Below are positions 9,461 to 46,039 of a stretch of 51,517 nucleotides of DNA, in pieces. The notes under the pieces are model-generated. The model saw only the letters and a program-made list of their open reading frames with translations. It made no database searches and had not been told where the DNA came from. The first letter of the stretch is position 1. Each line of letters opens with the position of its first letter. This DNA is from Centroscyllium fabricii (Eukaryota), in the NCBI GenBank assembly GCA_051313645.2, contig JBNRSN020000770.1, positions 62,001-113,517 of the forward strand, written 5' to 3'. Position numbers and translations under genes: made by a program.

Positions 9461-9815
9461 GAACATTATAATTAGGAGCAGGAGTCAGCCATGCGACCCC
9501 TCAGACCTGCTCCTCCATTCAATAAGATCATGGCTGATCTTCCAACTCAACTTCAATTTCCCGCCCAATCACCATAAACCCGTGAATCTCCTCGAGTCCA
9601 AACATCTCTCGATCTCATCCTTGGATATACTCAACGACTGACCATCCACAGCACTTTGAGGTAGAGATTTCAAAAGATTCCCAGCCCTCTGAGTGAAGAA
9701 ATTCCTCCGCAGCTCAGTCTTCAATGGCCGACCCTTTACCCTGAGACTGTGCCCCTAGTTCTATAATCTCTGGCCCGGTAAACAGTGTATCAGCATCTAA
9801 CCTGTCAATGACCCT
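9456..9815 (-). mobile_element. CR1 3' tail inserted at the GPCR C-terminus
   Basis: Reversed CR1 3'UTR (TAGGAGCAGGAGT...GATCATGGCTGATC...GAAGAAATTCCTCC); the GPCR ORF reads into it. Confidence 0.8.
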
Positions 9816-23949: not shown

Positions 23950-25202
23950 GGGCCCTGTTTTCCTCTGTGATAGTAAGTGCGTGCGCTAGGACCCTGTGGA
24001 CTCCTAATCGCATGCACCAATATCGCACAGAAGTTTCACCGTCAATTCCTCCCCGTTCCTGCGCTGCGTGGCAGTCCAACCACGCTAGTTGCGCAGTGTA
24101 TGCCCCGCCCACAAATCCCAAATTTAAATTAAAAACGCCCCCAGATCCCTAATTTAAATAAACAGATCCAGAGTCGGACCTTTGTGAGAGCAGGGAAGTG
24201 CGGAGCTGCACTCACAGACTCGGCGGGGGAGCAGCGCGGGCAGAGCAGCTGCTCAGAGGAAGAAACGGAAGGTAAGTCTCCCATTTTTTCCTTTATGATT
24301 TTTTAATAGCTAGAGCAGCGGTCTCCAACCGCCGGGCCACGGCCCATAACCGGGCCGCGGGACCGCGCCACCGGTCATCGAGAAGTCTTTGAATCCGCGC
24401 ATGCGCCGAATCATCGACCTCGTAGCGGCAACTGCAGGACGGGCCGCCGCTGCTGCTATCAATCCGACCCAGCTTAAAACTGCAGCCGGAGCGCTTGGGA
24501 ATCGGCACCCACCCCCCCCTGTTCAGATAGAAATCCATTGCCAGCACCCCCCCCCCCATGCTGAGATGGAAATCCTTCGCCAGCCACCCCCCCCGCAGAG
24601 ATAGAAATCGCTCGTCAGCCCCCCCCGCCCTGAGATAGAAATCGCTCATAGCGCCCCCCCCCGCTGAGATAGAAATCGCGAGAAATTGACAAGCCGAAAA
24701 CGGGCCGCGAACGCAAAAAGGTTGGAGACCACTGAGCTAGAGAGTTAAAAACTTCAGAAATTTAACTTTAAAAATTAGCGATTTGAAACAGTTAAATTAA
24801 CTTAAAATCGGATTTGTAAATTAAAAAAAAACTTTAACTTAAAAATTTAACGCTTCCGATCTGGCCACACTACTCCCAAAAACTGTAAACAAATTAAATT
24901 AAAGTTAAAAAATGAACATACCTGCTTCAGTAACTAAATCTTTTCCCTCACGCATGAGTTCACTACTCGTTTTTCTGTGTGCAGCTTGTGAGCCAGTTGC
25001 ACATGGAATCACTCTCCACAAATCACCGTTCTGACTGGAAATCGTCAGTGTAAGGTCTTCATGCGTTGGATGCTGACGGGCCTTAAAAATCAGCACAGGA
25101 AATTCCCGTTCATGGGCATCCCCTGTGCTGCACACCCACGGGGCATTTCTGACCCCCCTTTGTGCGTGTGCAGCTCCTCTGGAGCACAGGAAAACAGGGC
25201 CC
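23950..25202. mobile_element. Non-autonomous PIF/Harbinger-like MITE
   Basis: Perfect 15-bp TIRs GGGCCCTGTTTTCCT / AGGAAAACAGGGCCC; 3-bp flanks ATT/ACT (imperfect TSD). Confidence 0.8.
24316..24734. mobile_element. hAT (Charlie-like) MITE, 419 bp
   Basis: TIRs CAGCGGTCTCCAACC / GGTTGGAGACCACTG; perfect 8-bp TSD AGCTAGAG (24308-24315, 24735-24742); internal ~32-bp GAGATAGAAATC-poly(C) repeats. Confidence 0.93.
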
Positions 25203-26712
25203 ACTATAACAAAACCATATATAACGGGTTGTTGTACAATGCAAGAAATGTTTTATAATTGGTAAATAAATTAAGGATATGGTGTGTGTACCAGGAGCGG
25301 AATAAGGAAATTCCACAGAAAAATAATGGAATCCGGGTAAAGGTAATACAATAAATCAGGGACTAGTAGCTTCAGAAAGTAAGGGCTATATACAACAATG
25401 CTGGCCTCGGTGGTGGAGGAAACTCTCTCACCAGTGTTCTTGTATTTACTCAAGCATTTTCATCGGCTTTAAAAATCAGGATGTTGATTGGCCACATATT
25501 CATAAATATGATGTAATGATTACCTCAGCAGGATATGAGATTCCCACAGACCATATAGAGATCACCGGGACAGAACGTAAAACCTTTATGATGACTTTCA
25601 TACATGAGAGAAATTATAGAGATTTAGAGAATACATATATTTTTCATAATATAATTCGACAATGCAATAACTGGATGTGTACCGGAAAATGGGCATGTCT
25701 ATACTGCTAAGATTACAGCTTATGAGAAACCAAGTCATTCAGAACCACAAGAGGGTGTACCCGAGGAACAATGTCCCCAATTGACAATTATACCCACCTC
25801 TAAGGCAGTGTATCATGAAGTGATTCCAGATGTGGTCCCTTTTTACCTAAATTTAACAGAGGTGATAATGTCAAAGAGTTGCCCTGACAAAACAGCACAA
25901 CTAACTCATAGAATCCTGCAGCAGGTTTCTTATTAGTACAGGGAAAACGTGACCTTATCTATAGGTATAGACAAAACAGACATGCATCTGATCAAGCAGC
26001 ACACAATGATGTATGCGTTTGGTACGGGAATTGACTGATTAAACAAATTAGGGAATACCGTCTGATCATCAATCAGGGACGTCTCTCTACTGGGTTCACA
26101 AAGAAATACTTATCAGGGCTATCCAGTTATTATGATGATGCAGAGCTATGTAAGATCAGGAGTTCGATTAGGACCCACCCAGTCAAACACAAATAGCACA
26201 AGGTAGGGAGTCAAAGTTTGATGGGACAAATGAAACAAATTCCTAGTCTAATGAATCGAACTGGCCCCAAACAGTGATTTAGGATACAGAATGTAGGAGC
26301 AGTACAGGGGGATACTGTTGCCTAATTTCTCACGGCACCTCGATGGCGAGTCCCATTAGAAAAGCTATCATGTATTGAACCAAAATTCCAGGGATGCAAT
26401 AGAACCGAGGATGCCTTTTGGCTGTCCATACGGTTTACATGAACATTCAAAGGAGAGCTGTGGATACGGTTGCAGTGAATAAAGATTAAACTGTGCTATG
26501 GAAGTGACAGGCCCATCAGATGTAAGAACTAGAACAGCCTTCATATGAGATGGGAGGGAGTGTTTTACCACTTTAGAAAACTCCGATAGTCATGGAACAC
26601 TCGACAGTTCAATAGCCCCAGGGACCCACTGTGTCACCCCTGCAAAGACTACGGTAATATGAGGAAGAATTGTCCTTGTAATAGCCTCACATGGCCAAAC
26701 ATTACCACAGGT

Positions 26713-27256
26713 TGTCATAGGTTGGATTCCCCTTTAAATTTTAGGTGGCCTCTTCTCCCTTAAATTGGCCAGTACCTCGTTTACCACTGCATACACCTGA
26801 TTGGACAGCTCTAATCAACCAATATAGCTTGAGCTGTTTATAAGCTTCCACTTTGCACCAGGAGTTTGCCAGATCGTTAATTCTGTTACTGTGATACATG
26901 TGTTCTGTTCCTAGCTCTCTGATCCAGTCGATTTGTGTTACTGACCTGCTTACAGAAGAATTGGATTCTACTCTGCTGGAAATCTGTGTTGGAGTTTGTC
27001 CCTTCGGTGAAGCGGACTACCTGGAGAATTACTGTTTCTGCATTTGGACTTATTGCTCTCTATTACCTGAACTCTGTTTTGGACTTGTTACCCTCTATTA
27101 CCTGAACTCTGGTTTGGACTTGTTTGTCCCTGTGAACTTACTGCAGTTATTGACTTTATGTTTCTATATCTTCTGACGACTCGGAAATAAAGGAATTTTA
27201 TTTCTACGCTGGTTTCCGGTGTTTTGCATTTGGGCCCTACCATCAAGGCAATTACA
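26713..27256 (+). repeat. Chromovirus 5' LTR (544 bp)
   Basis: Direct repeat of 32745-33293; TATAAG at 26839; AATAAA at ~27186. Confidence 0.96.
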
Positions 27257-27268
27257 GAACTATCTGGC
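27257..27268 (+). promoter_or_regulatory. Self-priming primer-binding site
   Basis: GAACTATCTGGC; 27258-27268 is complementary (10/11) to GCCAGATCGTT at 26868-26878, 29 nt after the TATA box. No TGG tRNA-type start next to the LTR. Confidence 0.75.
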
Positions 27269-27273
27269 CAAGA

Positions 27274-28241
27274 ATGGACCCAGCAGACACACTGAAGCGT
27301 CTGGCACAGGTCGAAGACGCCCTATCACACCAGAGGCAGGCCTTGGGGATATTGATCACTCAAATGGAGCAGCTAACCGCCGCCTGGAACTCGCGGGCAG
27401 CGTCGGATCCGGCAGGGATTCCACCACCACCAGGCCCGGCTTCAGCATCGGTGTCGGCACACATGCCTCACCTACAAGGCCTCACACCCGAACCCCGAGT
27501 CGTAATACCGGAACGTTATGCCGGTGAACCTGAGCAATGTATTCCCTTTCTTACTAACTGTTCCATTCTGTTTTCATTGCAGCCCCGCACCTTTGCCAAT
27601 GAGATGGCAAAGGTAGCCTTTGTGATTAACCACCTCACTGGAAGAGCTCGTCTTTGGGGAACCGCCGAGTGGGAGAGAGAGACTCAGGCTTGCTCTTCTT
27701 TCAAGTGATTCGCCACCGAATTAAGAAAGGTGTTCGGCAGGTTACCTTCGGCTCTGAAGCAGCTCGGGGACTCATGAATCTGAGCCAGGGCAATCAGACA
27801 GTTGCTGATTACTCAATAGACTTCCGAATCAGGGCTCGGCTGAGTATTTGGAATTCGGCTGCATTATGTGACGTTTTTCTTCATGGGCTTGCAGGCTGCA
27901 TCAAGGCTGAACTGGTCTCCTATGATCTCCCTTCCACCCTGGATGAACTAATTAGTCTTGCCACCAGGATCGATCTCCGTATCCAGGCGCGTCGACGTGA
28001 GAGACTACTGGGAACGACTGGTCGACATCCTCCAAAACGGACTCAAGAGATATTCGTGGCATCCAGGAATACTGCGACAGCAGGGTCAGGGCCAGTGGAC
28101 ACCGAACCAATGCAATTCGGTCGCACCTGTATCTCATTGATGGAGCATAAACGACGCCACAGGGGTAATCTCTGTTTGTACTGCGGTCAGGCAGGCCAAT
28201 TTGTTTCCCAATGCCCAGCAAAAGACCGGACTCACCAGTAG
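27274..28241 (+). pseudogene. gag: Chromovirus gag (frameshifted near 27705-27730)
   Basis: PERYAGEP..C..FL, LTGRARLW, LSQGNQTVADYSIDFR, EPMQFG, zinc knuckle CLYCGQAGQFVSQC (His lost). Confidence 0.9.
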
Positions 28242-28329
28242 ATGGAGTCGTACTGGGGAGTCGAACTCCTACAAGACTCTCTCCCAATCCACGACCCTTG
28301 TGCCAGGCCAGACTTCTTCTTCCCAGTTG

Positions 28330-30349
28330 ATCCCAGACTCTCGCCACCTTTATTGACTCTGGAGCAGACATCAACATTATCGATGAAGATCTGGTCACAC
28401 AGCTGGAGATCGACCGGGTTCCACTGCCACAGCCAGTTCCTGCCAACGCCCTAGACGGCCACCTCCTGGGAACGGTGACACATCAGACCTCACCGGTTCA
28501 TATGCTTCTGTCTGGGAATCATCATGAAAACATACAATTTCATATCTTGAAATCACCTCGGCTTCCTTTAATTCTGGGACACACTTGGCTTCGCCGCCAC
28601 AACCCTCACATTGACTGGAACACGGGAGCTATTTCGGGGTGGAGTTCCTCCTGTCACCAGGTCTGTCTGAAACAGGCTACCGTCATCTGGCAGCCAGTAA
28701 CACCTCTTCCCGCTTCAGATCTTTCAGTGGTCCCCACCGACAACCATGATTTTAGGGAGGTGTTCAGCAAGGCTAGAGCCACGTCGCTGCCTCCACATCG
28801 CCCCTATGACTGCGTCATTGATTTGCTGCCAGGTTCTTCCCCACCCAAGGGACGTCTGTATTATTTGTCTGCACCTGAGAGGGAGGCCATGGAAACATAC
28901 ATCGGTGACTCTATGGCGGCGGGGATCATCCGTTCCTTTTCATCACCAGCTGGGGCTGGATTCTTTTTTGTGGGCAAGAAGGACGGGTCGCTGCAACCAT
29001 GCATCGACTACAGGGGTCTTAATGACATTACGGTGAAGAACCGGTATCCTCTTCCTCTCATCTCTTTGGCTTTTGAGTTGCAACAGGGGGCGACCATCTT
29101 TACAAAGCTGGATCTACGTAACGCTTATCATCTGGTCGATGAATGGAAGACTGCTTTCAACACCCCCTCTGGACATTATGAGTACCTCATTATGCCGTTC
29201 GGGTTAACCAACGCCCCGGCGGCATTCCAGGCCTTGGTTAATGATGTTTTACTTGACATGCTGAATAGGTTTGTGTTTGTGTACATGGACGACATTCTAA
29301 TCTTTTCCAAATCTCATGAGGAGCATGCGCACCACGTCCAGACGGTCCTACAACGGCTCCTGGAGAACTCATTGTTCGTGAAGGCAGAGAAATGTGAATT
29401 TCAGGTCACTACCTACTCTTTCCTGGGGTACATCATTGCGCAGGGGAGCATGCAGATGGATCCAGAGAAGGTGTCAGCTGTTCCGTCATGGCCTAGTCCT
29501 GAGACACGCAAACAACTACAGTGGTTTCTGGGATTCGCCAATTTTTATCGATGGTTCATTCGTAGCTACAGTACGGTAGCGGCTCCGTTATCGGCTCTTA
29601 CCTCCTCAATGGTGCCGTTCATGTGGTCTCCTGCAGCGGAGGAAGCTTTTCGAGATCTCAGGTCCCGGTTCACTTCTGCTCCCATTCTCCAGGTGCCTGA
29701 TCTGGATCAGCAGTTCGTGGTAGAGGTGGACGCATCAGATGTTGGAGTAGGAGCTATTCTGTCTCAACATTCGGCTTCAGACCAAAAGCTACATCCCTGT
29801 GCCTATTTTTCCAAGCGCCTTTCCTCGGCTGAGATGAACTATGACATCGGGAACCGGGAGTTACTGGCGGTCAAAATGGCATTGGAGGAGTGGCACCATT
29901 GGCTAGAGGGGACCAAGTTGCCGTTCCTAGTATGGACTGACCACAAAAACCTGGAATATATTCGCACGGCCAAGAGGTTGAATTCACGGCAGGCGAGGTG
30001 GTCTCTCTTTTTTACATGTTTCAAATTCACCCTCTCCTACAGACCTGGTTCCCGCAACGTCAAGCCTGATGTTCTGTCCCGCCAGTTCCAGAAGGAGGAG
30101 GGTCCCACTCCTGGATCGGACCTTATCCTTCCAGCTCCTTGTCTTATTGCTGCGGTTACGTGGGAGATCGAGGAGAGAGTGAGATCAGCCATGGGAGATC
30201 AGGCTGGACCCAGCGGTTGTCCTCCCGACCGTCTATTCGTCCCCATGAACATTCGACCGGTTGTTCTCCTATGGGCCCATGCTTCCAAGCTTTCCTGCCA
30301 TCCGGGGGCTCAAAGGACCAAGGAAGTTATATTGCGGAGGTTCTGGTGG
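28330..30349 (+). pseudogene. pol: Chromovirus pol: protease, RT, RNase H, start of integrase
   Basis: FIDSGAD upstream in the frame of ORF 28475; [12 protein letters not shown] (short deletion before DEWKTAF), [27 protein letters not shown]. Confidence 0.93.
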
Positions 30350-31322
30350 TGTAACGGACAGGTGTAAACGGAATGAGGGCGGGGCCCAAATGCAGAGACA
30401 CTGAAACGTCTTTGATAGCAAAACTCCTTTATCACAAAAACCCCGTAGAATAGCATAAACATACAAATATATAAGAAAACATATTGAACACAAGTCATAT
30501 GTAAAGACTGGCACAGACTTCCCAAAATAGCGAGTAATGGATAGAGGGGTGCCACGCAACCATGCGCGTCATTCTCCCGAGGAATACAAGTCCAGGCATA
30601 ACTGTCCAACTTAAACGAGCTCTCCTCTAGAAGCAGGACAACCACAATCCAAATACTTAAAGAGAAACGAACAAGTTCTCCTCTGCGAATAGGACATCAC
30701 AATCCACACTATCCGTAGAGGATTTGGCAACAGCTAATGCATACAGGTATCAAATGTCCAAACCTGGATTCGGATGAAGATACGAATGTCCAAGTAGTGG
30801 ATTCAGATCCACAAGCAGGGGAACGCCCTTACTCCACATATGAGTTGTCCATTGCTGGGTTCCAGATAGCAGAGCGCACTGTCAAGGCAGAGTGATCTGA
30901 TCTCCACCCCAATGCCTCTGTCGGGCAACACAGCCTGAGCACCAGAAATAGCAGAGTGCAAAATAAAGGCTGAGTCCGACGATCTCCAAACCTCCTTGCC
31001 TCTGACGGCAGCTCAGCACAGCAGCAGTAACCACTTCATCCAGTGACCTGAAGAATGTGTGGTAGAAGTCCAGTTCAGTAACACATTACAACACAATGAT
31101 CCCGCACTGCTCTCATGCCTACCTCCAGTTTATGAACTAAAACCAGCAAGCAAACCATTTGGTGATAGCCAATAACTTAGAGGCAATGAGAGCAGGACAC
31201 AACTAGCAATAGACAGATAATAGAATAATTAATGACATAACAGGGGAACCCAGTCCTCAAAACAGCTGTGAAGCACAGCAAAATCTGTTTTTCATTCTTA
31301 AAGGAACAGGCACCCTGTGACA
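30350..31322 (-). mobile_element. Solo LTR of a related chromovirus family (973 bp)
   Basis: TG..CA ends, TSD GGTGG (30345-30349, 31323-31327); shares GCATTTGGGCCC near the U5 end with the other LTRs; removal restores [22 protein letters not shown] in frame. Confidence 0.92.
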
Positions 31323-31327
31323 GGTGG

Positions 31328-32657
31328 GATACTCTGGAGGAGGATACCCGGGAATTTGTCAACGCCTGCTCGTTATGTAACCAACACAAGCCGTCTCGTC
31401 GGGCCCCTGCTGGTCTTCTGCAACCTCTGCCGATACCACATCGTCCTTGGTCCCACATATCCTTGGACATTGTTACTGGTCTGCCCTCATCAATGGGACT
31501 AACCACGGTCCTGACTGTGGTGGACCGATTCAGTAAGATGGCCCACTTCATACCTCTGCCTAAACTGCCCTCAGCGAAGGAGACAGCGGAACTCATGCTA
31601 CAACATGTTTTCCGGCTTCATGGGCTTCCTTTAGACGTAGTCTCCGATCGGGGTCCTCAGTTTACATCGTCATTCTGGAGGGAGTTTCGCAGTCTGATCG
31701 GGGCCACAGTCAGTCTGTCTTCGGGGTTTCATCCACAGTCCAACGGGCAGTCAGAACGGATGAATCAAGAGATGGAGAAGGTGCTCCGATGCATGGTCTC
31801 CCAGAATCCCTCTTCCTGGTCCCAGTTACTCCTGTGGGTAGAACACACTCACAACACTCTGACCAGCTCCACCACCGGACTCTCCCCGTTCCAGTGCGCC
31901 TATGGATTCCAGCCTCCATTGTTTCCGGACCTGGAGAAGGAGGTTTCCTGTCCGTCCGTCCAGGCATTTATTCAGCGTTGTCGCCATTCATGGGACCAGG
32001 CTCGGACTTTGTTGCTTCACTCGGCGGATCGATACTCGGCTGCTGCCAACCGTCGTCGTTCGGAGGCTCCTGAATATCAGGTTGGGCAGAAGGTGTGGCT
32101 CTCCACTAAGGACCTACCTCTCCAAGTGGAGTCGAAGAAGCTTGCTCCCCGTTTTATTGGACCCTTCGAGGTCCAGAAGATCATCAACCCAGCTGCTGTG
32201 AGACTCAAGCTCCCTCAACCCATTGCGGGTTCATCCCACATTTCACGTCTCACGCAACAAACCAGCACGTGCGAGTGCTTTGGTACCTGTTGCCACGCCC
32301 CCTCCACCTCCTCGTATGCTCGACGGTGGGCTGGTCTACACTGTTCATCGCCTACTTCGCTCCCGTCGTCGAGGGAGAAGACTTCAGTACCTGGTGGACT
32401 GGGAGGGGTATGGTCCAGAAGAGAGGTCCTGGGTTCCTGCTCGCCACATAGTGGATCCTCAACTCATTGTCGATTTTCACAGGAGGCATCCCGACCAGCC
32501 AATTAAGAGGACTGCGATCCCTGGGGAGTCTGGACAAGGGCCCGGTCCCGTGCAGTTCAAGGAAACCCTGAACGAGGAGGTAGAATCTGCTAATGAGGGG
32601 GATTCCATTCAGTCCTGTGATGAGATGGACATGGAGGAGGGCCCCGAGGACTGTTAG
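31328..32657 (+). pseudogene. Chromovirus integrase core, GPF motif and chromodomain (frameshift ~32222)
   Basis: [33 protein letters not shown]; [32 protein letters not shown]. Confidence 0.93.
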
Positions 32658-32744
32658 TCCCTCCTCCGCACCCCTCCACCCACCCGATTCCGGCATTTGG
32701 TGTTTTGGGACGTCAGGAGTCGTCCCTTGAGGGGGGGGGGGTTC

Positions 32745-33293
32745 TGTCATAGGTTGGATTCCCCTTTAAATTCTAGGTGGCCTCTTCTCCCTTAAATTGG
32801 CCAGTACCTCGTTTACCACTGCATATACCTGATTGGACAACTGTAATCAACCAATATAGCTTGAGCTGTTTATAAGCTTCCACTTTGCACCAGGAGTTTG
32901 CCAGATCGTTAATGCTGTTACTGTGATACATGTGTTCTGTTCCTAGCTCTCTGATCCAGTCGATTTGTGTTACTGACCTGCTTACAGAAGAATTGGATTC
33001 TACTCTGCTGGAACTCTGTGTTGGAGTTTGTCCCTTCGGTGAAGCGGACTACCTGGAGAATTACTGTTTCTGCATTTGGACTTATTGCTCTCTATTACCT
33101 GAACTCTGGTTTGTACTTGTTACCCTCTATTACCTGAGCTCTGGTTTGGACTTGTTTGTCTCTGTGAACTTACTTCAGTTATTGACATTATGTTTCTATA
33201 TCTTCTGACGACTCGGAAATAAAGGCATTTTATTTCTACGCTGGTTTCCACGCTGGTGAATTGCATTTGAGCCCTACCATCAAGACCATTACA
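32745..33293 (+). repeat. Chromovirus 3' LTR (549 bp)
   Basis: Matches the 5' LTR with a few percent differences by eye. Confidence 0.96.
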
Positions 33294-33803
33294 CAGGTAG
33301 AATATTATTTTAAAATAAATCTAGAAGATTATGTTGCAAGGTTCGAATCTGACATCCCTGAATTAGCTGAAGCATTAATCGAGCTAATAGGTCAAGGGAG
33401 CACCTCTCAACAACATTATCATACATTGGTGCAAGGAAACAAACACATAGCTGAGGAAATTCCAGACATCTAGATTCAGACCCAATGGTGGGATATAGGA
33501 GCAAATATAGACTTTTCTCATTGGATTAGAATAACTTCACATGTACTGGTCATAGCCCAACTCAAAGTATTAATATGCGTACTACTATACACCTGCTAAC
33601 GGAAACACCTGATGTCTAATACACAATCCCGTTTACATATGATCACAACCCAAAAAACCTCAGAGTTACACACACGAAAGGGAAGTAATCCATATGTAAG
33701 AGTTTAGTTTTGAGGGGTCGGATAACGCCTCACCCTCAATATAGGGATTTGGAGAATAAGGTTATTTGTATTATTTAGTAAATTAAGTTTGTATATATTT
33801 AAT

Positions 33804-34341
33804 GGGCCAGAAATTCGAGTGGCCCGCAGCAGTTGCATCCACACGGAGGCAGGCCCACGGATCGGAGCTTTCCGATGCTGAGGGAGAAGTGCCCTCAGCA
33901 TCAAACGCAGGAGTGAGTTGCACCCAAAAATCCCGATGGAAATCGGTGATAATTGCTGCGTGATTCTGTGGGCAAGTTGCCCACAAGCTGCACGGGAGAA
34001 AAGCAGTAGTAACTCGTGCGTGAGGGAGAGCAGTGCGTTCCTAAACCAGGTAAGTTACTTTTTTACCTTTAATTTTAAGTTTTAACAGTTTTGGGGAGTA
34101 ATGGGGCCAGATCGGTAGTATTAAATTTGGAAGTTAAAGTTTTTAAAAAAACATTACAAACCGGATTTTCAATTACTATACCTATTCCAAATCGCTAATT
34201 TTTAAATTTAAAGTTCTGAAATTTTTAACTATTTAGTTAAGTTAACAAAATAGGAGAAAAAATAGCTGAGACTTATCTCCGGTGAAAAGCTGCTCTGGAG
34301 GCGCTGCTCACTGCCGAGTCTGTGGGTGCAGCGCCTCACGT
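33804..34341 (-). mobile_element. Harbinger-like MITE fragment, truncated at an LTR
   Basis: Starts GGGCCAGAAATTC; ~34085-34335 is the reverse-complement homologue of ~24200-24890 but lacks the hAT insert. Confidence 0.7.
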
Positions 34342-36579
34342 TGTAACGTTGGGGTGTGGGGCCCAAATGCAAAGACACTGAAAAGGCTGTCTAGAGCTAG
34401 AACTCCTTTATTACTTATAAATTACAGAAAACATAATGAAAATGCATCCATACCATACAAACTATATAAACATATAAACAAGTATTCAACAGAAACCTGG
34501 CACAAGCTTAATACAGAAACTGCTTATATGTAGTAGTAATGAAAAGTCCAAATACTGAGTACAGATGATGCAAACAATGTCCAACTCTACCCCCAGAACA
34601 CTCGGCCAAGAGCATCCCTGGATATAGTCTTCCACGAAGAAGTAGGAAACCGGTCTTCCTCAGAACTCCCAGGACACTCGGCCAACAGTATCCCTGGATG
34701 TAGCCCTCCTCGGAGAAATCGGAAACAGGTCTTCCTCTAAACTCCCAGGACACTTGACAAAGAGCATCCTGAATATAGAAAAGATCTCATTGCAGCAGAA
34801 CTGAAATGTCCAAATATTGGAGTACCGGTAGTAGAAGGCAATGTCCAGAATAAGAGATGGAACTCTCCTAGAGTCCGCCCTACAGCAGGAACTCATCTCT
34901 ACCAGAGTCTTCAGAAGGAGAAATCCCTTATTCAACTAGCAGGGAAAAGCCCTACCAACACAGCCTCCTTCGGAGCTCTAGAGTCTTCAGATCATAACAA
35001 GCAATGTCCATAAAGTATAAAATGGAAAGTCCAAACCTGATTACAGGTGATGAAGAACAGTGTCCAGAAAGTAGAATTTAGGAATCTTCCAGAGTCCACC
35101 CTTCAATAGGAACTCACACTTCCCAGAGTCTTCTGAAGAAGAAATCCAAAACCACAGCTCACTGCCTCCCACGGGGCTAGAAACACCTCCTGTGTGTCCT
35201 AGTACTGCAAAGTGTTACAAGCTCACTTGGTAGAATAAAGAGCTATAATGATCCGGCGACTCCCTAGCCAAAGCACCCAGCTTATAAGCTGAGCAAGCAA
35301 ACAAGAATACATTAATGCTAGCCAATAAGATTGCAGGTATTGATAACCAGGAACACACAGGTATGTGAACAGTTAATTGAGGTACAATGAACCAACACAG
35401 AAATTCAAAATGGATTCCTTAAAGGGGAATGCATCTGTGACATAATTCCAAAATGGATTCCCTAAAGGGGAATGCATCTGAGACAGAACCCCCCCCCCCT
35501 CAAAGGACGACTGCTGACGTCCCAAGTACCCAAATACCGAAAATAAGGTGGGTGGAGGGGTGCTGAGGAGGGACCAACCGTCCTCCAGGTATAAAAGAAT
35601 CCGAGGATCTAGACGCTTCAGTGTCTGCGGGGCCCCTAATCTGGCCGGATTATTCTGTAACGCTGAGTGGTGGGGCCCAAACGCAAAGACACTGAATAAC
35701 GCTATCTAGAGCTAGAACTCCTTTATTACATATAAATTACAGAAACCCTAATCTAATGCATCCATACCATACAAAATATATAAACATATATACAAGTCTT
35801 CAACAGAAAACTGGCACAAGCTTAATACAGAAACTGCTTATATGTAGTAGTAATGAAAAGTCCAAATACTGAGTACAGATGATGCAAACAATGTCCAACT
35901 CTACCCCCAGAACACTCGGCCAAGAGCATCCCTGGATATAGTCTTCCACGAAGAAGTAGGAAACCGGTCTTCCTCAGAACTCCCAAGACACTCAGCCAAC
36001 AGCATCCCTGGATGTAGCCCTCCTCGGAGAAATCGGAAACAGGTCTTCCTCTAAACTCCCAGGACACTTGACAAAGAGCATCCTGAATATAGAAAAGACC
36101 TCATTGCAGCAGAACTGAAAGGTCCAAATATCTGAGTAACGGTAGTAGAAGGCAATGTTCAGAAAAAGCGATGGAACTCTCCCAGAGTCCGCCCTTCAAC
36201 AGGAACTCATCTCTTCCCAGAGTCTTCTGAAGAAGAAATCCAAAACCACAGCTCACTGCCTCCCACGGGGCTAGAAACACCTCCTGTGTGTCCTAGTACT
36301 GCAAAGTGTTACAAGCTCACTTGGTAGAAAAAAGAGCTATAATGATCCGGCGACTCCCTAGTCAAAGCACCCAGCTTATAAGCTGAGCAAGCAAACACGA
36401 ATTCATTAATGCTAGCCAATAAGATTGCAGGTATTGATAACCAGGAACACACAGGTATGTGAACAGTTAATTGAGGTACAATGAACCAACACAGAAATTC
36501 AAAATGGATTCCTTAAAGGGGAATGCATCTGTGACAGAATTCCAAAATGGATTCCCTAAAGGGGAATGCATCTGTGACA
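34342..36579 (-). mobile_element. Non-autonomous LTR mini-element: LTR 35656-36579, 170-bp internal region (PBS + PPT), LTR 34342-35485
   Basis: Two long direct repeats with TG..CA ends; PBS GAATAATCCGGC next to the 5' LTR; 35486-35580 matches the chromovirus 3'UTR/PPT (32655-32744); no coding relic; no TSD. Confidence 0.85.
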
Positions 36580-39500
36580 CTACACCTGACTCCAGTGCCT
36601 CACTACCCAGTCTGGGCCTACACCTGACTCTAGTCCCTTGTCCCGGTCTGATCCTGCACCAAACTCCATTCCCTCACTACCCAGTCTGGGCCTACACCTG
36701 ACTCCACTCCCTGACTCCCCAGTCAGGGTCTACAACTGACTCCAGTCCCGCGATACCTGGTCTGGGCCTACACATGACTCCAGCCCTCGCTACTCGGTCT
36801 GGGCCAAAAACTGACTCCAGCCCCTCACTAACCGGTGTGATCCTGCACCTGACTCCATTCCCTCAATATCTAGACTGGGCCTGCCCATGACTCCAGTCCC
36901 TGAGTACCCACTCTGTGTTTACACCTGACTCCAGTCCATCGATACCCGGTCTGGGCCTACAACTGACTCCAGCCCCTCAATACCCGGTCTGAGCCTGCAC
37001 CTGACACCTGTCCCTCACTTTCTGGGTTGAGCCTGCACCTGAAACCAGTCTCTCAGTACACAGTCTGGGCCTGAAAATGACTCCAGCCCATGACTACACG
37101 TCTGGGTTTACACCTGACTCCAGTCTCTCACTACGCGTTCTGGGCCTACACCTGACTCCAGTCCCTCACTACACGTTCTGGGCCTACACCTGACATCAGA
37201 CCCTCACAAACTGGTCTGGGCCTACACCTGAATCCAGTCCCTCACTGCACGTTCTGGGCCTACACCTGAATCCAGCTCAACACTATGCTGTCTGGGTTTA
37301 CACCTGACTCCAGTCCCTCAATACACTTTCTGTGCCTGCACCTGACTCCAGTCCCTCACTACACTGTCTGCGCCTACACCTGACTCCAGTCCCTCACGAC
37401 CGAGTCTGGGCCTGCACCGGACTCCAGTCCCTCACGACACGGTCTGGGCCGACACCTGACTCCAGTCCCTCACTATCCAGTCTGGGTCTGCACATGACTA
37501 CTGTCCCTCACTACACGGTCCGGGCCTTCACCTAACTCATGTCCCTCACTACACTGTCTGTGCCTACACCTGACTCCAGTCCCTCACGACCGAGTCTGGG
37601 CCTACACCTGACTGCAGTCCCTCACGATACGGTCCGGGCCTTCACCTGACGCCAGTCACTCACTACACAGTCCAGGCCTTCACCTGACTCCAGTCCCTCA
37701 CGACCGAGTCTGGGCCTGCACCTGACTCCAGTCCCTCAGGACCAAGTCTGGGCCTGCACCTTACTCCAGTCCCTCACGACACGTTCCGGGCCTTCACCTG
37801 ACTCATGTCCCTCACGACACAGTCCAGGCCTTCACCTGACTCCAGTCCCTCAGGACCAAGTCTGGGCCTGCACCTTACTCCAGTCCCTCACGACACAGTC
37901 CGGGCCGACACCTGACTCCAGTCCCTCACTACACTGTCTGCGCCTACACCCGACTCCAGTCCATCACGACACGGTCCGGGCCTTCATCTGACTCCAGTCC
38001 CTCACGACACGGTCCGGGCCTTCACCTGACGCCAGTCCCTCACGACAATGTCCGGGCCTTCACCTGACTCATGTCCCTCACTACACTGTCTGCACCTACA
38101 CCCGACTCCAGTCCATCATGACACGGTCCGGGCCTTCATCTGACTCCAGTCCCTCACGACACGGTCCGGGCATTCACCTGACGCCAGTCCCTCACGACAA
38201 TGTCCGGGCGTTCACCTGACTCATGTCGCTCACTACACTGTCTGCGCCTACACCTGACTCCAGTCCCTCACTACCAGGTTGCGCCTACACCTGACTCCAG
38301 TCTCTCACGACCGAGCCTGGGCCTGCACCAGAATCCAGTCGCTCACTATCCGGTCTGGGCCTACACGTGAGTCAATCCCCACATTAACTTGTCTGGGCTT
38401 ACACCTGTCTTCAGACATTCGTTACCCAGTCTGGAAATCAACCTGATACCAGTCCGTGGTTACCCAGTCAGCACCTACACCTGATTCCAGTCCCTCACTA
38501 CCCGGTTTGGACAGACAACTGACTCCAGTCCCTCGATACCAGGTCTGGGCATACACATGATTCCAGTCCCTCACTATGTGGTCTGAGACTTCTTCTGATT
38601 GCAGTCCCCGACAGACTGGTCTGGGCCTGCACCTGACTGCATTCCCTCACTACCCAGTCTGGGTCCACACCTGGCTCCAGTCCCTCGATACCCGAAGCGG
38701 GACTGCACCTCACTCCAGACTCTCGGTACCCGTTCTGAGGCTGCACATGACTCCAGCCACTCACTACGCAGTCTGGGCCGACACCTAACGGCAGTCACTC
38801 GATACCCGTTCTGGGATTAAACCTGACTCCTGTCCCTCGATACCCGGCCTAGGCCAAAACCTGACTCCAGTCCCTCGGTACCCGGTCTGGGACAAAACCT
38901 CACTCCAGTCCCTCGGTACCCAGTCTGAGCCTACAGCTGACTCAAGTCCCTCACTACCCAGTCTGGGACTAAACCAGAAACCAGTCCCTCACTTCCCATT
39001 CTGGGCCTGCACATGACTCCTGTCCCTCACTACCCGGTCTGGGTTTACACCTGGCTCCAGTGCCTCACGACCCAGTCTGGGCCTACACCTGACTCCAGTC
39101 CATCAGTACCTCGTCCGTGGTCGACACCTGACTCCTGTCCCTCACTCTCCGGTTCGGGCGTACACATGACTCCAATCCCTCACGACCTGGTTTTGGCCTA
39201 CACCTGAATCCAGTCGCTCAATACCCGGTCTGGTCCTACACATGAGTCCATCCCCACATTAACCTGTCTGGGCTTACATCTGTCTTCAGGCATTCGTCAC
39301 CCAGTCTGGAAAAGCACCTGACACCAGACCCTGGTTACCCAATCAGCGCCTACACCTGCTTCCAGTCCCTCACTACCCGGTCTGTGCCTACACCTAACTC
39401 CATTCCCTCAAGACCCAGTCTGGGCCAGCAAAAGGCTCCAGTCCATCTCTACCAAGTCTAGGCCTACACCGGACTCCATTCCCTCACGCCCGGTCTGGGC

Positions 39501-40305
39501 GTACACCGGATTCCATTCCCTCATGACCCAGTCTGGCCTACACCTGAATCCATTCACTCACTACTCAACCTTGGCCAGCAGAAGGCTCCAGTCCACACAA
39601 CCAAGTCTAGGCCTACACCTGACTCCAGTCCCTCAAATCCCGGCCTGGGCCTCCACCTGATTCCAGTCCCCCGTGACCCAGTCTGGGCTAACGGCTGACT
39701 GCATTACCTCGCTATCCAATTTGGGCTTGCCAATGACTCCAGTCCACCACAACCAAGTCTAGGCCTACAACTGCCTCCAGTACCTCGATACCCGGCCTGG
39801 CCTATACCTGACTCAAGTCCCTCACTAAACTGGCCGGGATTTCCACCTGACTCCATTCCCTCACTAGCCAAACTGGGCCTGCAAATGACTCAATTCCATC
39901 ACAACCAAGTCTAGGCCTACACCTGGTTCCAGTCCCTCACTAACCGCTTTGGACCTACAACGGACTCCAGCCCCTTGATTCCTGGCCTGGGCCTACACAT
40001 GACTCCAGTCCCTCGATACCTGGTCTGGGCCACCAACTGACTCCAGCCCCTCACTACCCTGTGTGATCCTGCACCTGACTCCATTCCCTCACTACCCAGA
40101 CTGGGCCTGCATCTGACTCCAGTCCCTCACTACCCAATCTGGGCCTGCAATTGACTCCAGTCCATCACTCCCACGTCTAGGCTTACACCTGACTCCAGAG
40201 CCGCAATACCCGGTCTGAGCCTACCCCTAACTCCAGCCCCTAATTACCCGGTCTGGGCATGTACATGATGCCAGTCCCTCACTACCCGATCCGATCCGGG
40301 CCTTC
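36580..40305. repeat. 38-bp degenerate tandem satellite (~98 units)
   Basis: Consensus GTCTGGGCCTACACCTGACTCCAGTCCCTCACTACCCG. Confidence 0.95.
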
Positions 40306-41503: not shown

Positions 41504-41982
41504 TGTTGTGTTCGCTGGTGGGCGAAAGAACTCCTGAGACTGATGAACAGCAAACAACCTTCTTTATTCGTTCACATTACAGAGAGAGCGTTTCGCTCCC
41601 TTGCGCTTGAATTAGTAGCCCCCGTGACGTCAGCATGCATGGGTGCGATGACGTCGGCGTATCTGCGTGTTTGTGCGCATCGGTCACGTTGTGCGCATGC
41701 GCGGGGACATCTTGGCATCATCATGCATGTGCGCGACGACGTAGGCGTGTCAGCATCGGCATCGAGGGAGTAGCACACCTCGGGTCCCGTGCATCCAGAG
41801 TCCGTGAGTCCGGCGGATTCGCCGTTCAGTCCGTGGCGATCCGCCACAGAGTTCCCCCCTGAATCCATTTAGGAGGAATGGACGAGTCGTTGCGGCGGTC
41901 TGATGGGTCGGCCGGAGCGGCTCTTAGCTGGAGATGGCTGGAGAGTCATGGTCGGGTGAGCTGGCTGTCCGGCAGGTCGACC

Positions 41983-44959
41983 TCATGGCGTTGGGTGGGC
42001 AATTAGTGTGGTTTCGCCGGGCTCAGTGTGCGCCGGCTTGAGTCTGTCGATCGACACAGTTTCAGTTCTGTTGCCCACCTGTAGTTGGAAAAACTTGTCC
42101 CCCGCCTGAAGCACATTGTATGGTCCGTCATATGGCGGCTGCAGAGGCTGTGTGTCGTAATGGACGAAGACGAACCGCGCCTGGTGTAGGCTAAGTGGGA
42201 CATGCGAGGTTGTTTCGCTGTGCCGGGACACAGGTACCAGGGTGAACTGTTGCGCCGAAGTGGCGAAGTCGAGGCGTTGCTGGTCGGCTGACCAGGGTGT
42301 CGTGGCAGCAGGCAGGAACATGCCGGGTACGTGCAGCGGCTGGCCGTAGACGGCTCCGCTGCCGATGTGTGGAGGTCTTCTTTGACTGTGGATCGGAAGC
42401 CAAGTAAAACCCATGGGAGGCGGTCAGTCCAGGAGTTCCCCCTGAGGCCGGCATGTAGAGAAGCTTTCATGGATCTGTGGAAGCGTTCACACAGACCGTT
42501 GGCTGGTGGGTGGTACGCCATGGTGTGGTGCAAGGTCACCCCGAGGCTCTTAGCGACGGCAGTCCACAGTGCTGAGGTGAACTGGGGCCCTCTGTCGGAC
42601 GTGATGTCGGCGGGCATGCCGAATCGGGCGACCCACATGGCGGTGAAGGCTCTGGCGATGTCCGCAGTGGTGGTGGAGGCCAGTGCTATTGCTCCGGGCC
42701 AGCGAGTGGTGCGGTCCACGATAGTGAGCAAGTGGGTGTTGCCCTGTGAAGGTAGCAGGGGTCCCACGATATCCACGTGGATGTGGTCAAATTTTCGTGC
42801 GGGGACGTCGATCTGCCCGAGGGGTGCTTTTGTGTGCTGGTGCACCTTTGCCCGTTTGCAAGCCATGCAGGAGTTGGCCCAAGTACGAACATCTTTACTA
42901 AGGCTGCGCCAGACAAAGCGTTTGGCTACCAATTTGAGGGATGCGCAGGCGCCGGGGTGGGAGAGGTTGTGGAGCGTTTCGAATATGTGCCTGCGCCAGG
43001 ATGCTGGGACGGCGGGCCGGGGTTGCAGCAGGGTAACATCACACTTGGCGTTAGTGGCAGTGAGGCTGCAGGCAACGGTGGCCAAGCACAGGCTGGGTAG
43101 CGTGGTGGGCGCGGAGAGCATGTCCGAGTCTGTGATCTGGTACACTGCGAGTTGGGCGTAGTCAACTGCCAGGTGAGTGGTGTTGATGGTTGCGTGGGAG
43201 AGGCACTCGGCAACCATGTTGTCTCGGCTGGAGATGTGTTGGATGTCGGTGGTGAATTCAGACACGGTCGCGCGCTGGCGCTGCTGTCTGGTGGACCAGG
43301 GTTCGGCTGTCTTTGCCATCGCGAATGTCAGGGGTTTGTGCTCAACAAAGGCAGTGAATGGGTAGCCTTCCAGCAAAAACCGGAAATGACGGACTGCCAG
43401 GGAGAGGGCAAAGTGCTCGTGGTTGCAGGTGCTGTATTTCACTTCTGGTGGGCGCAGCTGGCGGCTGAAGAAGGCGAGGGGTTGCCAGGTGCAGTCAACC
43501 CACTGCTCATATACAGCACCGACCGCGTAGTCGGAGGCGTCCATGGTGAGCGCCACCTTGGCGTTGGGCCATGGGTGTGCAAGCAGGGAGGCGTTGGCTA
43601 GTGCGGACTTGGTGGAGTCGAAGGCGGCGTTTGTTTGCGCCGTCAATTCGACCGCCATTTTGCCACACTTCCCGCGGAGGGCTTGGGAGAGGGGGCCCAT
43701 GAGGGATCCCGCTTTAGGGATAAAACGGTTGTAAAAGTTCACCATCCCGAGGAACACTTGGAGGCCCTGGACGGTGGTGGGATGGTGGAATTGTTGGACG
43801 GCTTGTACATTTGTGGGCAGGGGAATGGCCCCGGCCTGGGTTATGCGGTGGCCGAGGAAGTCGATCTGGTCGAGACCGAACTGGCACTTGGCGGGGCTGA
43901 GGATGAGGCCGTGTTCGCTGAGGCATGTGAACAGGGCCTTAAGGTGTTCGAGGTGATCCTGCTTGGAGGAACTGGCTACCAGGATGCCGTCCAGGTAGAT
44001 GAACAGGAACTTCAGGTCACGTAGGACCGAGTCCATGAGCCGCTGGAACGCCTGCGCCGCGTTTTTGAGGGTGAAGGGCATCCGCAAGAACTCGAACAGC
44101 CCAAAGGGGGTGATGACTGCGGTCATCGGGATGTCGCGGCATGGACGGGTACCTAGTGGTAGCCACGCACCAGGTCGACTTTGGAGAAGACTGAGCAGTT
44201 GGCCAGTCTGGCCGAAAAGTCCTGGATGTGCGGAACTGGGTACCGATCTGGCGTAGTGGCGTCATTGAGGCGGCGGTAATCCCCGCATGGGCGCCAGCCC
44301 CCGTCGGGTTTGGGGGCGATTTGGAGCAGTGAGGCCCAAGGGCTGTTGGAGCGGCGGATGATGCCGAGTTGCTCCATGGTGGCAAACTCGTTCCGTGCGA
44401 ACTCCAACTTGGCTGGGTCTAGCCTGCGGGCGTGGGCGTGCACCGGTGGGCCGGTGGTGGGGATAAAATGCTCTACCCCGTGCTCGGCTACCTTGGCGGT
44501 GAACGTCGGGTTGGTGAGGGACGGGAATTCAGACAGAAGTGCCGAGTAAGCGTCTGTGGCCCGGGCATGGCACAGTGCGGCCATGTTGGCGGGCTGGGCA
44601 GGGGCCGTGGCGCCTGGGATGGGGGTCATGGAGTTGATGTCCATGAGGCGGCGCCGGCGCATGTCGACCAGCAGTCCGTGGGCGCATAGGATTTCTGCGC
44701 CGATGATTGGCGAGAGTATCTTGGCGGTGAAAAACTCCCATGTATAGCAGCTCCCTGCGAGATGGAGTTGGACCATGCGGGTGCCGTACATCCGGATGTT
44801 GGACCGTTGGCCGGGCCTCGCGTGCCTGTTTTGATTTTGAGTTCAGAGGCGGGCACAATGCTATGCTGGGCCCCGGTGTCGCAAAGGAAGCAGCGTCTGG
44901 TTTTGCCAACCGTGATGTACAGGAGGCATCCAGCGTGCCCTACGGACATGGTGGGGGCT
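41983..44959 (-). pseudogene. pol: CsRn1-like pol (PR, RT, RH, IN), frameshifted, catalytic YLDD changed to YLDG
   Basis: FLCDTGA; WRPCGDYRRLN, FSKVDLVRGYH; DASDYAVGAV; HVDIVGPL, TSDRGPQF, NGLCERFHR; PYDGPY. Confidence 0.92.
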
Positions 44960-45651
44960 GATGTATGTGCGGTCTTGAAGGTGCAGTGTTGCATGCACCG
45001 TTGCGCCCTGGCATCGAACCGGGTGTGGTAATAGCAGTATCCTGGATTCGGCGGGTTTGGGGAATGTGGCGGTCATGTGGGCCTATTGTCTGGTCCTGGC
45101 GACCGCGTGGTGGGAGTGGCTGGTCGTGCCGTGGCGGTGGCTGCCAAGTCCGTGTTGCCATGGCCCTGTTGTCCCGCCATCAGTCTGTCGGCCAGACTGG
45201 CGTCCGAACTCCAGAACCTGGCAGACCTAGCAACGATTGTGGGGCGGATGCTGGGGATAAGCTGGTGTATAATGAGCGTCCAGAAGAGGGATCCCGGTGG
45301 ACTCTCGTCTGTGAGCGAGAGCATGTGGGAGAGGAGGCGCGATGGTGAAGCGTCACCAAGGCCCTGGAGGGCAAGGAGCTGGCTGCAGCGCTGGTAATGG
45401 GAGGTAGTGAACCTTTTAAGGAGCGCGGCTTTAAGATGTGTGTCCTTGCCCTGCTGCGGTGGATTCTGAAGCTCTGCCCAGACTTCCGTCACCGTGGAGC
45501 TCCCCAGTGAAGCGACGAGGTAGTCGTACCACACGTCTTCTCCATTGACCCGGTGTAGTCTGAACCGGGATTCTGCCTGAGCAAACCAGGCTTGGGGCTG
45601 ATGTACCCAAAACTCAGGCAGCCGGACCATGGCTGTGCTTGCATCTACCAT
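44960..45651 (-). pseudogene. gag: CsRn1-like gag
   Basis: VRLPEFWVHQPQAWFAQAESRF; CYYHTRFDARAQRCMQHC at ~44985-45040 after a frame break. Confidence 0.85.
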
Positions 45652-46039
45652 CGTTGTGTTCGGAATGCGTTCCGAACGTCGGGGTCACCGATGTTGTGTT
45701 CGCTGGTGGGCGAAAGAACACCTGAGACCGAGTAACAGCAAACAACCTTCTTTATTCGTTCACATTACAGAGAGAGCGTTTCGCGCCCTTGCGCTTGAAT
45801 AAGTAGCCCAGTGACGTCATCACGCATGTGCGCGATGACGTCGGCGCGTCTGTGTGTTTGTGCACATCGGGCATGTTGTGCGCATGCACGGGGATGTCTT
45901 GGCATCATCATGCATGTGCGCGACGATGTAGGTGCGTCGGCACCAGCCTCGAGGGAGTGGCGCACCTCGGGGCCGGTGCCTCCAGAGTCCGTGAGTCCGG
46001 TGGATTCGCCGGTCAGTCCGTGGTGATACGCCACAGTTT

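What the first reader, a model, noticed from the sequence alone, without database searches (positions are those of the whole stretch)
34342..36579. Non-coding LTR mini-retroelement with kilobase LTRs, a 170-bp core and a self-priming site
Seen: LTR(924 bp)-PBS-~60 bp-3'UTR/PPT-LTR(1144 bp) on the minus strand. The PPT-proximal ~95 bp matches the autonomous chromovirus 3 kb away, but the LTR bodies differ from the chromovirus LTRs. Knowledge: TRIMs have short LTRs and usually a tRNA PBS. Inference: a minimal parasite of Tf1/sushi chromoviruses that keeps only cis signals and needs no tRNA, possibly an undescribed family.
Basis: partly seen in the sequence, partly recalled or inferred. Interest (0 to 1): 0.7.

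Follow-up and report, generated by a model that had tools for sequence, protein, structure and literature searches.

The report
Self-priming mini jumping element in shark
This is a stripped-down, protein-less jumping element in a shark-type genome that appears to start copying itself with a piece of its own RNA and to borrow enzymes from full-size relatives; it is real and probably repeated many times, and it combines known features in a way we did not find described for vertebrates.

Summary
The anatomy is confirmed: LTR 924 bp, core 170 bp, LTR 1144 bp, minus strand, in a cartilaginous-fish genome. The core is nearly all signal: an 11-nt primer site matching the LTR 29 nt after the TATA box (10 of 11; two compensatory changes against the neighbouring sushi-type chromovirus), a 46-nt arm that folds back on U5 as far as the poly(A) signal (z -4.9), and a 100-nt 3'UTR with a conserved hairpin and PPT. 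The arm starts as the decayed gag start. No genome was held. Contigs of four public runs cover the LTRs and core far more deeply than nearby sequence, and one diverged contig runs from PPT into the arm, but by only 20 letters: a multi-copy family is likely (about 75%), not proven. Self-priming is standard for Tf1/sushi elements, and long-LTR/short-core and vertebrate TRIMs are published; the combination was not found in nine paper searches, but Repbase/Dfam could not be checked. Verdict: new variant of a known kind, moderate interest.

The parts
35656..36579 (-). 5' LTR, short subtype (924 bp), sushi-type termini; inferred U3 ~228 nt, very long R, short U5
   Evidence: terminal motifs fit those tabulated for Sushi LTRs in PMC3601003
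36375..36380 (-). TATA box (LTR position 200)
   Evidence: same 29-nt spacing to the primer motif in the chromovirus LTR and (variant box) in the solo LTR
36341..36351 (-). predicted self-primer = first 11 nt of the RNA
   Evidence: 10 of 11 complementary to the PBS; positions 4 and 9 covary with the PBS between this element and the chromovirus; position 8 is mismatched in both. Transcription start itself not measured
36308..36313 (-). 6-nt partner for the LTR 3' end (second duplex of the pretzel); weak
   Evidence: 6-7 bp run in all three LTR families, chance 0.09-0.20 each
35722..35727 (-). poly(A) signal of the 5' LTR, at the base of the U5-arm hairpin
   Evidence: only AATAAA in the LTR; 5 of 6 bases paired in the fold
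35644..35654 (-). primer-binding site (self-priming type, no tRNA-type TGG start)
35591..35636 (-). 46-nt arm complementary to U5; first part (to 35611) is the decayed gag start (start codon lost, 2-nt deletion), last part (35610-35591) has no counterpart in the chromovirus and reaches the poly(A) signal
   Evidence: (z -4.92)
35486..35585 (-). 3'UTR homologous to the chromovirus from three codons before its pol stop; includes conserved hairpin 35522-35505 and PPT 35501-35489
   Evidence: hairpin also in L001 and L002
34342..35485 (-). 3' LTR, long subtype (1144 bp), with an extra ~220-bp unit at about 35147-34927
   Evidence: joints of net -220 in 4 of 4 runs laid
36580..40288 (.). 38-bp satellite array forming the upstream flank, cut mid-unit at the LTR
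33800..34341 (.). high-copy MITE-like repeat forming the downstream flank, cut at the LTR; its missing ~250 bp is not on the other side
26713..33293 (+). neighbouring sushi-type chromovirus (gag, PR-RT-RH-IN-chromodomain; frames broken; 5-bp TSD): relative used for comparison, not the parent
30350..31322 (-). 973-bp solo LTR nested in the chromovirus, 5-bp TSD; sister LTR family whose U5 pairs with the mini-element arm as well as the element's own U5

Best explanation
A copy of a multi-copy, non-autonomous LTR retrotransposon family derived from a sushi-type (Tf1/sushi, V-clade-like) chromovirus by loss of almost all of gag-pol. Inferred working: Pol II starts about 29 nt after the TATA box and makes a ~2-kb non-coding RNA; its first 11 nt pair with the PBS just past the 5' LTR inside a pretzel closed by the U5-arm stem; RT/RNase H of an intact sushi-type helper cleaves off the 11-mer and uses it as primer, as in Tf1; the PPT primes the second strand and helper integrase inserts the DNA. 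Freed from coding, the old U5-gag-start stem has become longer and reaches the 5' poly(A) signal, which may keep the RNA from being cut short in the 5' LTR. This particular copy is a recombinant of two insertions (one in a satellite, one in a MITE-like repeat), hence no TSD and unlike LTRs. Shown: anatomy, complementarities, covariation, mosaic LTRs, high depth in public runs. Inferred: start site, priming, helper use, poly(A) masking, copy number.
For: Primer/PBS 10 of 11 at TATA+29 in both this element and the chromovirus, with two compensatory changes; cross-pairings score only 8 of 11. U5+leader fold -54.4 kcal/mol, z -4.92, against z -1.61 for the chromovirus; the 25 nt with no chromovirus counterpart add pairing reached by 12 of 2000 shuffles and 17 of 2000 random window 25-mers, while the matching chromovirus piece is reached by 951 of 2000. 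Only 5 nt lie between arm and 3'UTR, which begins three codons before the pol stop. Longest ATG ORF in the predicted 1966-nt RNA is 78 codons. In one search all 30 bins are covered in 4 of 4 runs; the core bin 35541-35623 is 62, 48, 82 and 16 times the median of the six bins over 33300-33797 and exceeds 13, 13, 10 and 2 of 13 LTR bins; at most 0.04 of what was laid runs on into unlike sequence; X9 record 32 (112 letters, all laid, 8 differences, 1 gap, depth 35.9) runs 35493-35605, where the chromovirus would show 17 mismatches and 10 gap columns. Short and long LTR subtypes both occur in the runs (joint 34926-35155, depth 4700, 750, 665 in X1, X5, X9). LTR differences are clustered (0 of 20000 uniform simulations as extreme).
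Against: No TSD on this copy, so it does not itself show transposition as a unit. No second full copy was seen; record 32 has only 20 letters beyond the junction (tool asks for 31) and only 32 of 12,956 pieces and a fraction of loose ends (759 hidden) were displayed. The core bin includes 45 nt shared at 89% with autonomous 3'UTRs, so part of its depth may come from full-length elements; summed contig depth is not a copy number. The primer-PBS duplex alone is modest (-12 kcal/mol; 97 of 1000 shuffles of the local LTR stretch did as well). Poly(A) masking is equivocal: signal unpaired 0.05-0.11 in the 5' context against 0.42-0.55 in the 3' LTR alone, but 0.08-0.30 when this locus's real flank is included. 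The arm pairs as well with the solo LTR's U5 (-54.7) as with its own (-56.2, -55.4), so it is not specific to this LTR body.
Confidence: 0.75

Rival explanations
1. One-off deletion: the leader of one full-length insertion (in the satellite) was joined to the 3'UTR of another (in the MITE-like repeat), or one element lost its middle; the LTR family is abundant but normally encloses gag-pol, and the long arm belongs to the autonomous parent or is chance.
For: No TSD, two LTR subtypes, and both flanks are half-hosts, all of which a two-element deletion also explains. L001, from another organism, is an internally deleted sushi-type element that keeps gag, showing such deletions occur. No autonomous element with this LTR body was available to compare.
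Against: Breakpoint falls within 5 nt of both the arm end and the pol stop region; outer arm pairs beyond chance; a 7%-diverged contig at depth 35.9 joins 3'UTR to outer arm (worst-case chance 0.007); two autonomous relatives have acidic pol coding sequence, not an anti-U5 arm, upstream of the 3'UTR; few laid contigs run on into unlike sequence.
Confidence: 0.13
2. The junction is multi-copy but was amplified passively (tandem LTR-core-LTR arrays, satellite-associated or segmental duplication), not by its own reverse transcription.
For: The copy abuts a satellite and lacks a TSD; tandem and recombined copies are common among non-autonomous LTR elements in plants (PMC13570524).
Against: All signals for reverse transcription are kept and the arm looks improved rather than decayed; the window shows one unit, not an array.
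Confidence: 0.07
3. A mobile non-autonomous family, but primed by a tRNA or tRNA fragment; the match to the LTR is a relic.
For: One mismatch in the 11-mer; no tRNA library could be searched; Helenus families use tRNA halves (PMC10886601).
Against: No TGG start after the LTR; compensatory changes at two positions and fixed TATA+29 spacing; the parent group is self-priming.
Confidence: 0.05

Closest known systems
Tf1/sushi group chromoviruses (Tf1, Tf2, sushi-ichi; GyDB V-clade)
   Same: Self-primer at the RNA 5' end, PBS next to the 5' LTR, pretzel duplexes, Sushi-type LTR termini, PPT; the neighbour's Pol is 76% identical to a Takifugu protein.
   Different: No gag-pol; U5-leader stem about 45 bp against about 31 (broken) in the neighbour and extended to the poly(A) signal; LTR 0.9-1.1 kb, mostly R.
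TRIMs / LARDs / 'long TRIMs' (plant non-autonomous LTR elements; PMC13570524)
   Same: Two LTRs round a short non-coding core with PBS and PPT; long LTRs with short cores, chimeric and TSD-less recombinant copies are all reported there.
   Different: The six PBS types reported for 115 beet families are tRNA-derived; total length 2.0-2.2 kb exceeds the classical <1 kb TRIM limit; host is a vertebrate.
Helenus (vertebrate TRIMs of coelacanth, sturgeon, zebrafish; PMC10886601)
   Same: Non-autonomous, Gypsy-dependent LTR elements in fishes.
   Different: Helenus has a tRNA-derived Pol III promoter in short LTRs, tRNA primers and 4-bp TSDs in animals; here a TATA-type LTR, no tRNA gene or Rfam match, self-priming.
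biv-TRIM (PMC6934838)
   Same: Animal TRIM without a canonical tRNA PBS, with inverted repeats in the core.
   Different: 202-218 bp repeats; authors propose no mechanism; no primer/PBS covariation shown.
HIV-1 polyA hairpin (PMC2645353, abstract)
   Same: RNA structure that occludes AAUAAA to repress 5' polyadenylation.
   Different: In HIV the hairpin is local and present at both ends; here the partner strand lies outside the LTR, so it can form only at the 5' end. Function here is inferred only.

Membership tests
Tf1/sushi group (cis signals) | PBS complementary to the RNA 5' end rather than a tRNA | tested here: met
   10 of 11 at TATA+29, two compensatory changes; start site itself inferred
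Tf1/sushi group (cis signals) | Pretzel duplex between PBS-downstream leader and LTR | tested here: met
   z -4.92, about 45 bp
Tf1/sushi group (cis signals) | Pretzel duplex between LTR 3' end and sequence after the primer | tested here: inconclusive
   6 bp; chance 0.16-0.20 for this LTR, 0.09-0.17 for the two others
Tf1/sushi group (cis signals) | Sushi LTR terminal motifs | tested here: met
   5' LTR ends fit both motifs tabulated in PMC3601003; the 3' LTR differs at one 5' position
Tf1/sushi group (autonomous member) | gag-pol with chromodomain integrase | tested here: not met
   only ~10 decayed gag codons; no Pfam hit for the 110-codon frame over the core
Tf1/sushi group (cis signals) | RNase H cleavage after the primer and self-primed cDNA | not testable with these tools
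   needs RNA/cDNA ends
Non-autonomous LTR retrotransposon (TRIM in the wide sense of PMC13570524) | Two LTRs, PBS, PPT, no coding capacity | tested here: met
Non-autonomous LTR retrotransposon (TRIM in the wide sense of PMC13570524) | Target-site duplication | tested here: not met
   this copy has none; other copies not seen
Non-autonomous LTR retrotransposon (TRIM in the wide sense of PMC13570524) | Multiple dispersed copies of the same LTR-core-LTR unit | tested here: inconclusive
   deep coverage of LTRs and core in 4 of 4 runs, one contig crossing the junction by 20 letters; no genome
TRIM (classical definition) | Under 1 kb, terminal repeats 100-250 bp, tRNA PBS | tested here: not met
   2238 bp, LTRs 924/1144, self-priming PBS
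Helenus / Cassandra (TRIMp3) | tRNA- or 5S-derived sequence in the LTR | tested here: not met
   0 Rfam matches at E<=1 over 33300-36700; 0 tRNA genes in the window
Any catalogued Repbase/Dfam shark LTR family | Sequence match to a library consensus | not testable with these tools
   libraries not available

The most novel reading that the evidence does not exclude
An abundant, undescribed vertebrate family of tRNA-independent minimal retroelements whose whole core is RNA structure: after losing gag, the U5-gag-start stem was extended into an arm that both frames the self-primer and masks the 5' poly(A) signal, and one conserved core is shared by several unrelated-looking kilobase LTR bodies (core depth exceeds every LTR bin in two runs; the arm pairs equally with the sister solo LTR). 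It would define by natural deletion the minimal cis set for sushi-type retrotransposition.
Probability: 0.35. Interest if true: 0.62.

Novelty: new variant of a known kind. Interest (0 to 1): 0.42.

Why it matters
Self-priming has been worked out only in yeast Tf1; for the vertebrate sushi group it rests on sequence inspection. A natural deletion derivative that keeps 170 bases shows which cis signals such an element needs (primer site, U5 stem, 3'UTR hairpin, PPT) and supplies covariation evidence for self-priming in a cartilaginous fish. Elements like this are invisible to protein-based annotation and to LTR finders that ask for a tRNA PBS, so a deep repeat family in shark genomes may be annotated as loose LTRs. 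It is a tidy extension of known biology rather than a new mechanism.

Tried and rejected
Genome-wide BLAST of the core: no genome held. No RNA holder listed among 9 runs; says nothing on expression. 3'UTR/PPT motif scans: 0 hits in viral contigs, 0 in prokaryote genome contigs, 2 in metagenome contigs, neither a mini-element: L001 keeps gag and part of protease, L002 is a pol end. Integrase searches gave 3 and 11 loci, 34-50% identical, too distant to compare leaders; not analysed further. Searching protein collections with the 110-codon stop-free frame across the core to catch other copies: 0 of 3 candidates; 2 hits among representatives were rejected as summed weak scores on repetitive unrelated proteins (best single stretch 6.4 and 14.8 bits). 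Whole-RNA folding gives the primer-PBS pairs probability 0; uninformative, because that duplex crosses the U5-arm stem and the program cannot form crossing pairs. Rfam and tRNA scans blank. Earlier scan notes: nothing by sequence or place. Idea that the neighbouring chromovirus is the parent: rejected, LTR bodies do not align and PBS/primer differ. Idea that the 5' LTR simply lost 220 bp in place: not sufficient, since 8 sites in its single unit side with unit 1 against 41 with unit 2, differences cluster elsewhere too, and net -220 LTRs are deep in the runs.

Full report
Observation. The minus strand carries an LTR at 36579-35656 (924 bp), a 170-bp core and an LTR at 35485-34342 (1144 bp), both with TG...CA ends. 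The LTRs differ by 36 substitutions and by a 220-bp extra unit in the 3' copy. The host is a cartilaginous fish, probably a shark: the named best relatives of a receptor gene in the window are all sharks and rays. Three kb away lies a 6.6-kb chromovirus (26713-33293, + strand) with gag, protease, RT, RNase H, integrase and chromodomain hits in broken frames, a 5-bp TSD, and a Pol up to 76% identical to fish elements including a Takifugu protein; I read it as sushi-type (V-clade) from that and from its domain order. Its LTR aligns with the mini-element LTR only over the last ~65 nt.

The core, base by base. Positions +2..+12 are complementary at 10 of 11 to LTR position 229-239, 29 nt after the TATA box; the next-best site scores 7. 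The chromovirus shows the same 10 of 11 at the same spacing, with different bases at primer positions 4 and 9 that are matched in its own PBS; crossing the two gives 8 of 11. A nested solo LTR of a third family has a like motif at the same spacing. [quoted passage not shown] The duplex energy alone is not striking (97 of 1000 local shuffles as good); the case rests on position and covariation. Positions 20-65 (35636-35591) pair with U5: -54.4 kcal/mol, z -4.92, against z -1.61 for the chromovirus. The first half of this arm is the decayed gag start (start codon lost, 2-nt deletion). The last part has no chromovirus counterpart, adds pairing reached by 12 of 2000 shuffles and 17 of 2000 random window pieces (chromovirus control 951 of 2000), and ends on the poly(A) signal, pairing 5 of its 6 bases. 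Five bases later begins the 3'UTR, homologous to the chromovirus from three codons before its pol stop, with a small hairpin also present in L001 and L002 and a 13-purine PPT. The third pretzel duplex is only 6 bp and not significant alone. The predicted 1966-nt RNA has no ATG frame over 78 codons.

There is no TSD. The upstream flank is a 38-bp satellite cut mid-unit, the downstream flank a high-copy MITE-like repeat lacking about 250 bp that its relative at 23951-25202 has, and that piece is not on the other side. LTR differences are clustered: 6 in 365, 11 in 116, 3 in 288 and 16 in 155 bases (segments chosen by eye; with ten fixed bins 0 of 20000 uniform simulations were as uneven). So two insertions have been fused here. 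That fits LTR-LTR recombination between two family copies, but also a one-off deletion between two full elements, which is the main rival.

Is it a family? No genome is held. Nine public runs from three studies hold 0.06-0.22 of the words; I laid four of the nine on 33300-35760 at 82% likeness (contigs only). All 30 bins are covered in all four. Median summed depth over the LTR is 30,258, 55,194, 3,776 and 2,431 against 1,222, 2,868, 88 and 72 over 33300-33797; the core bin 35541-35623 has 75,949, 136,593, 7,185 and 1,161, above 13, 13, 10 and 2 of the 13 LTR bins. The tool warns that this is no copy number, and 45 nt of that bin are shared at 89% with autonomous 3'UTRs. At most 0.04 of what was laid runs on into unlike sequence, and no joint or loose end at the junction is among those displayed, but 759 loose ends and 12,924 pieces were hidden. 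One displayed piece, X9 record 32, is laid whole over 35493-35605 with 8 differences and 1 gap at depth 35.9: it joins PPT and 3'UTR to the outer arm in a diverged copy. The chromovirus would differ there by 17 mismatches and 10 gap columns, and the worst-case chance of the 20 arm-side letters is 0.007; yet 20 letters is under the 31 that the tool asks for to count a bridge. Joints of net -220 bp occur in all four runs (deepest form 4700, 750 and 665 in X1, X5, X9), so short and long LTR subtypes are both real. I put a multi-copy mobile family at about 0.75.

How it most likely works. Shown: anatomy, complementarity, covariation. Inferred from Tf1: transcription from about 36351, self-priming by the 11-mer, PPT priming, integration by a helper's integrase; the helper is an intact sushi-type element, not the broken neighbour. 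Inferred and weaker: because R is some 650 nt or more long and the poly(A) signal lies in both LTRs, the element must avoid ending in the 5' LTR; the extended arm covers the signal only there. HIV-1 uses a hairpin over AAUAAA for this (PMC2645353, abstract). Predicted accessibility is 0.05-0.11 at the 5' end against 0.42-0.55 for the 3' LTR alone, but 0.08-0.30 with this locus's flank included, so the support is partial. The arm pairs equally well with the solo LTR's U5, which suggests one core type shared across LTR families, or simply conserved U5 ends.

Comparison. Non-autonomous LTR elements form a size continuum; long LTRs with short cores, chimeras and TSD-less recombinants are described in sugar beet, with six tRNA-derived PBS types across 115 families (PMC13570524, part 1 of 12 and passages). 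Fish TRIMs exist (Helenus), tRNA-primed (PMC10886601, part 1 of 6 and passages). biv-TRIM lacks a canonical PBS and has no proposed mechanism (PMC6934838, part 1 of 5 and passages). LTR-only elements are the commonest class in a zebrafish survey (PMC8672886, passages). Self-priming in Tf1/sushi, Tcn1 and TAR lineages is summarised in PMC6317226 (passages); Sushi LTR termini come from PMC3601003 (passages). Butler 2001 and Lin and Levin 1997 I did not see; I know them only as cited there. Nine searches listed no paper whose title or opening describes a self-priming non-autonomous element in a vertebrate; the library lacks most subscription papers, I read no supplements (family tables there could bear on this), and Repbase and Dfam, where such a family would most likely sit, could not be searched. 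An unchecked earlier scan note (e1-7502298) reports a fungal self-priming mini element, so the pairing of features is not unique to this window; I did not test it.

Verdict. Real; works like a Tf1/sushi element without genes; not a classical TRIM by size or primer; family status likely. New variant of a known kind, interest 0.42; the boldest reading (abundant shared-core family whose arm doubles as a poly(A) mask) has probability about 0.35 and would merit about 0.6.

Noticed in passing
window 36344/35647 and the matching chromovirus positions: Primer position 8 is a C mismatched to the PBS in both the mini-element and the chromovirus, although positions 4 and 9 covary; a shared mismatch may be a feature of this group rather than decay.
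   Followed up: partly
window 30350-31322 (-): 973-bp solo LTR nested in the chromovirus integrase, perfect TSD; unrelated body but the same primer-like motif 29 nt after a TATA-like box and a U5 that pairs with the mini-element arm; a short duplication at its 3' end.
   Followed up: partly
window 27183-27205: In the chromovirus the poly(A) signal sits in a local hairpin inside the LTR, an HIV-like arrangement different from the long-range arm of the mini-element.
   Followed up: partly
window 26713-33293: The chromovirus Pol is up to 76% identical to relatives whose named members are mostly teleost and 70-72% identical in DNA to L002 although the host looks like a shark; possible horizontal transfer, not tested.
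   Followed up: no
L001:1-1163: Another internally deleted sushi-type element: gag and protease start joined to the chromodomain end, 3'UTR hairpin, PPT and LTR.
   Followed up: partly
window 8697-9641 (+): Stop-free frame of a GPR139-like receptor; named best relatives are all sharks and rays (70-75% to Heptranchias and Heterodontus). Used only to place the host.
   Followed up: partly
window 10947-23743 and 36583-40288: Two satellite arrays, 39-bp (about 326 copies, interrupted by a LINE RT frame at 15756-17663) and 38-bp (about 98 copies).
   Followed up: no
window 41504-46036 (-) and 46322-51482 (-): Two more Gypsy-type elements with LTR pairs (346 bp, 89%; 192 bp, 87%), the first with a DUF7041 gag and no chromodomain hit.
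   Followed up: no
window 25205-26712 and 33294-33797: The chromovirus sits inside a low-copy repeat with broken, unidentified reading frames.
   Followed up: no
window 36491-36579 and 35402-35485: Both LTRs begin with a 43-bp tandem duplication, giving two LTR-start motifs; joints skipping 44-48 bp in runs X2 and X9 show single-start variants.
   Followed up: partly
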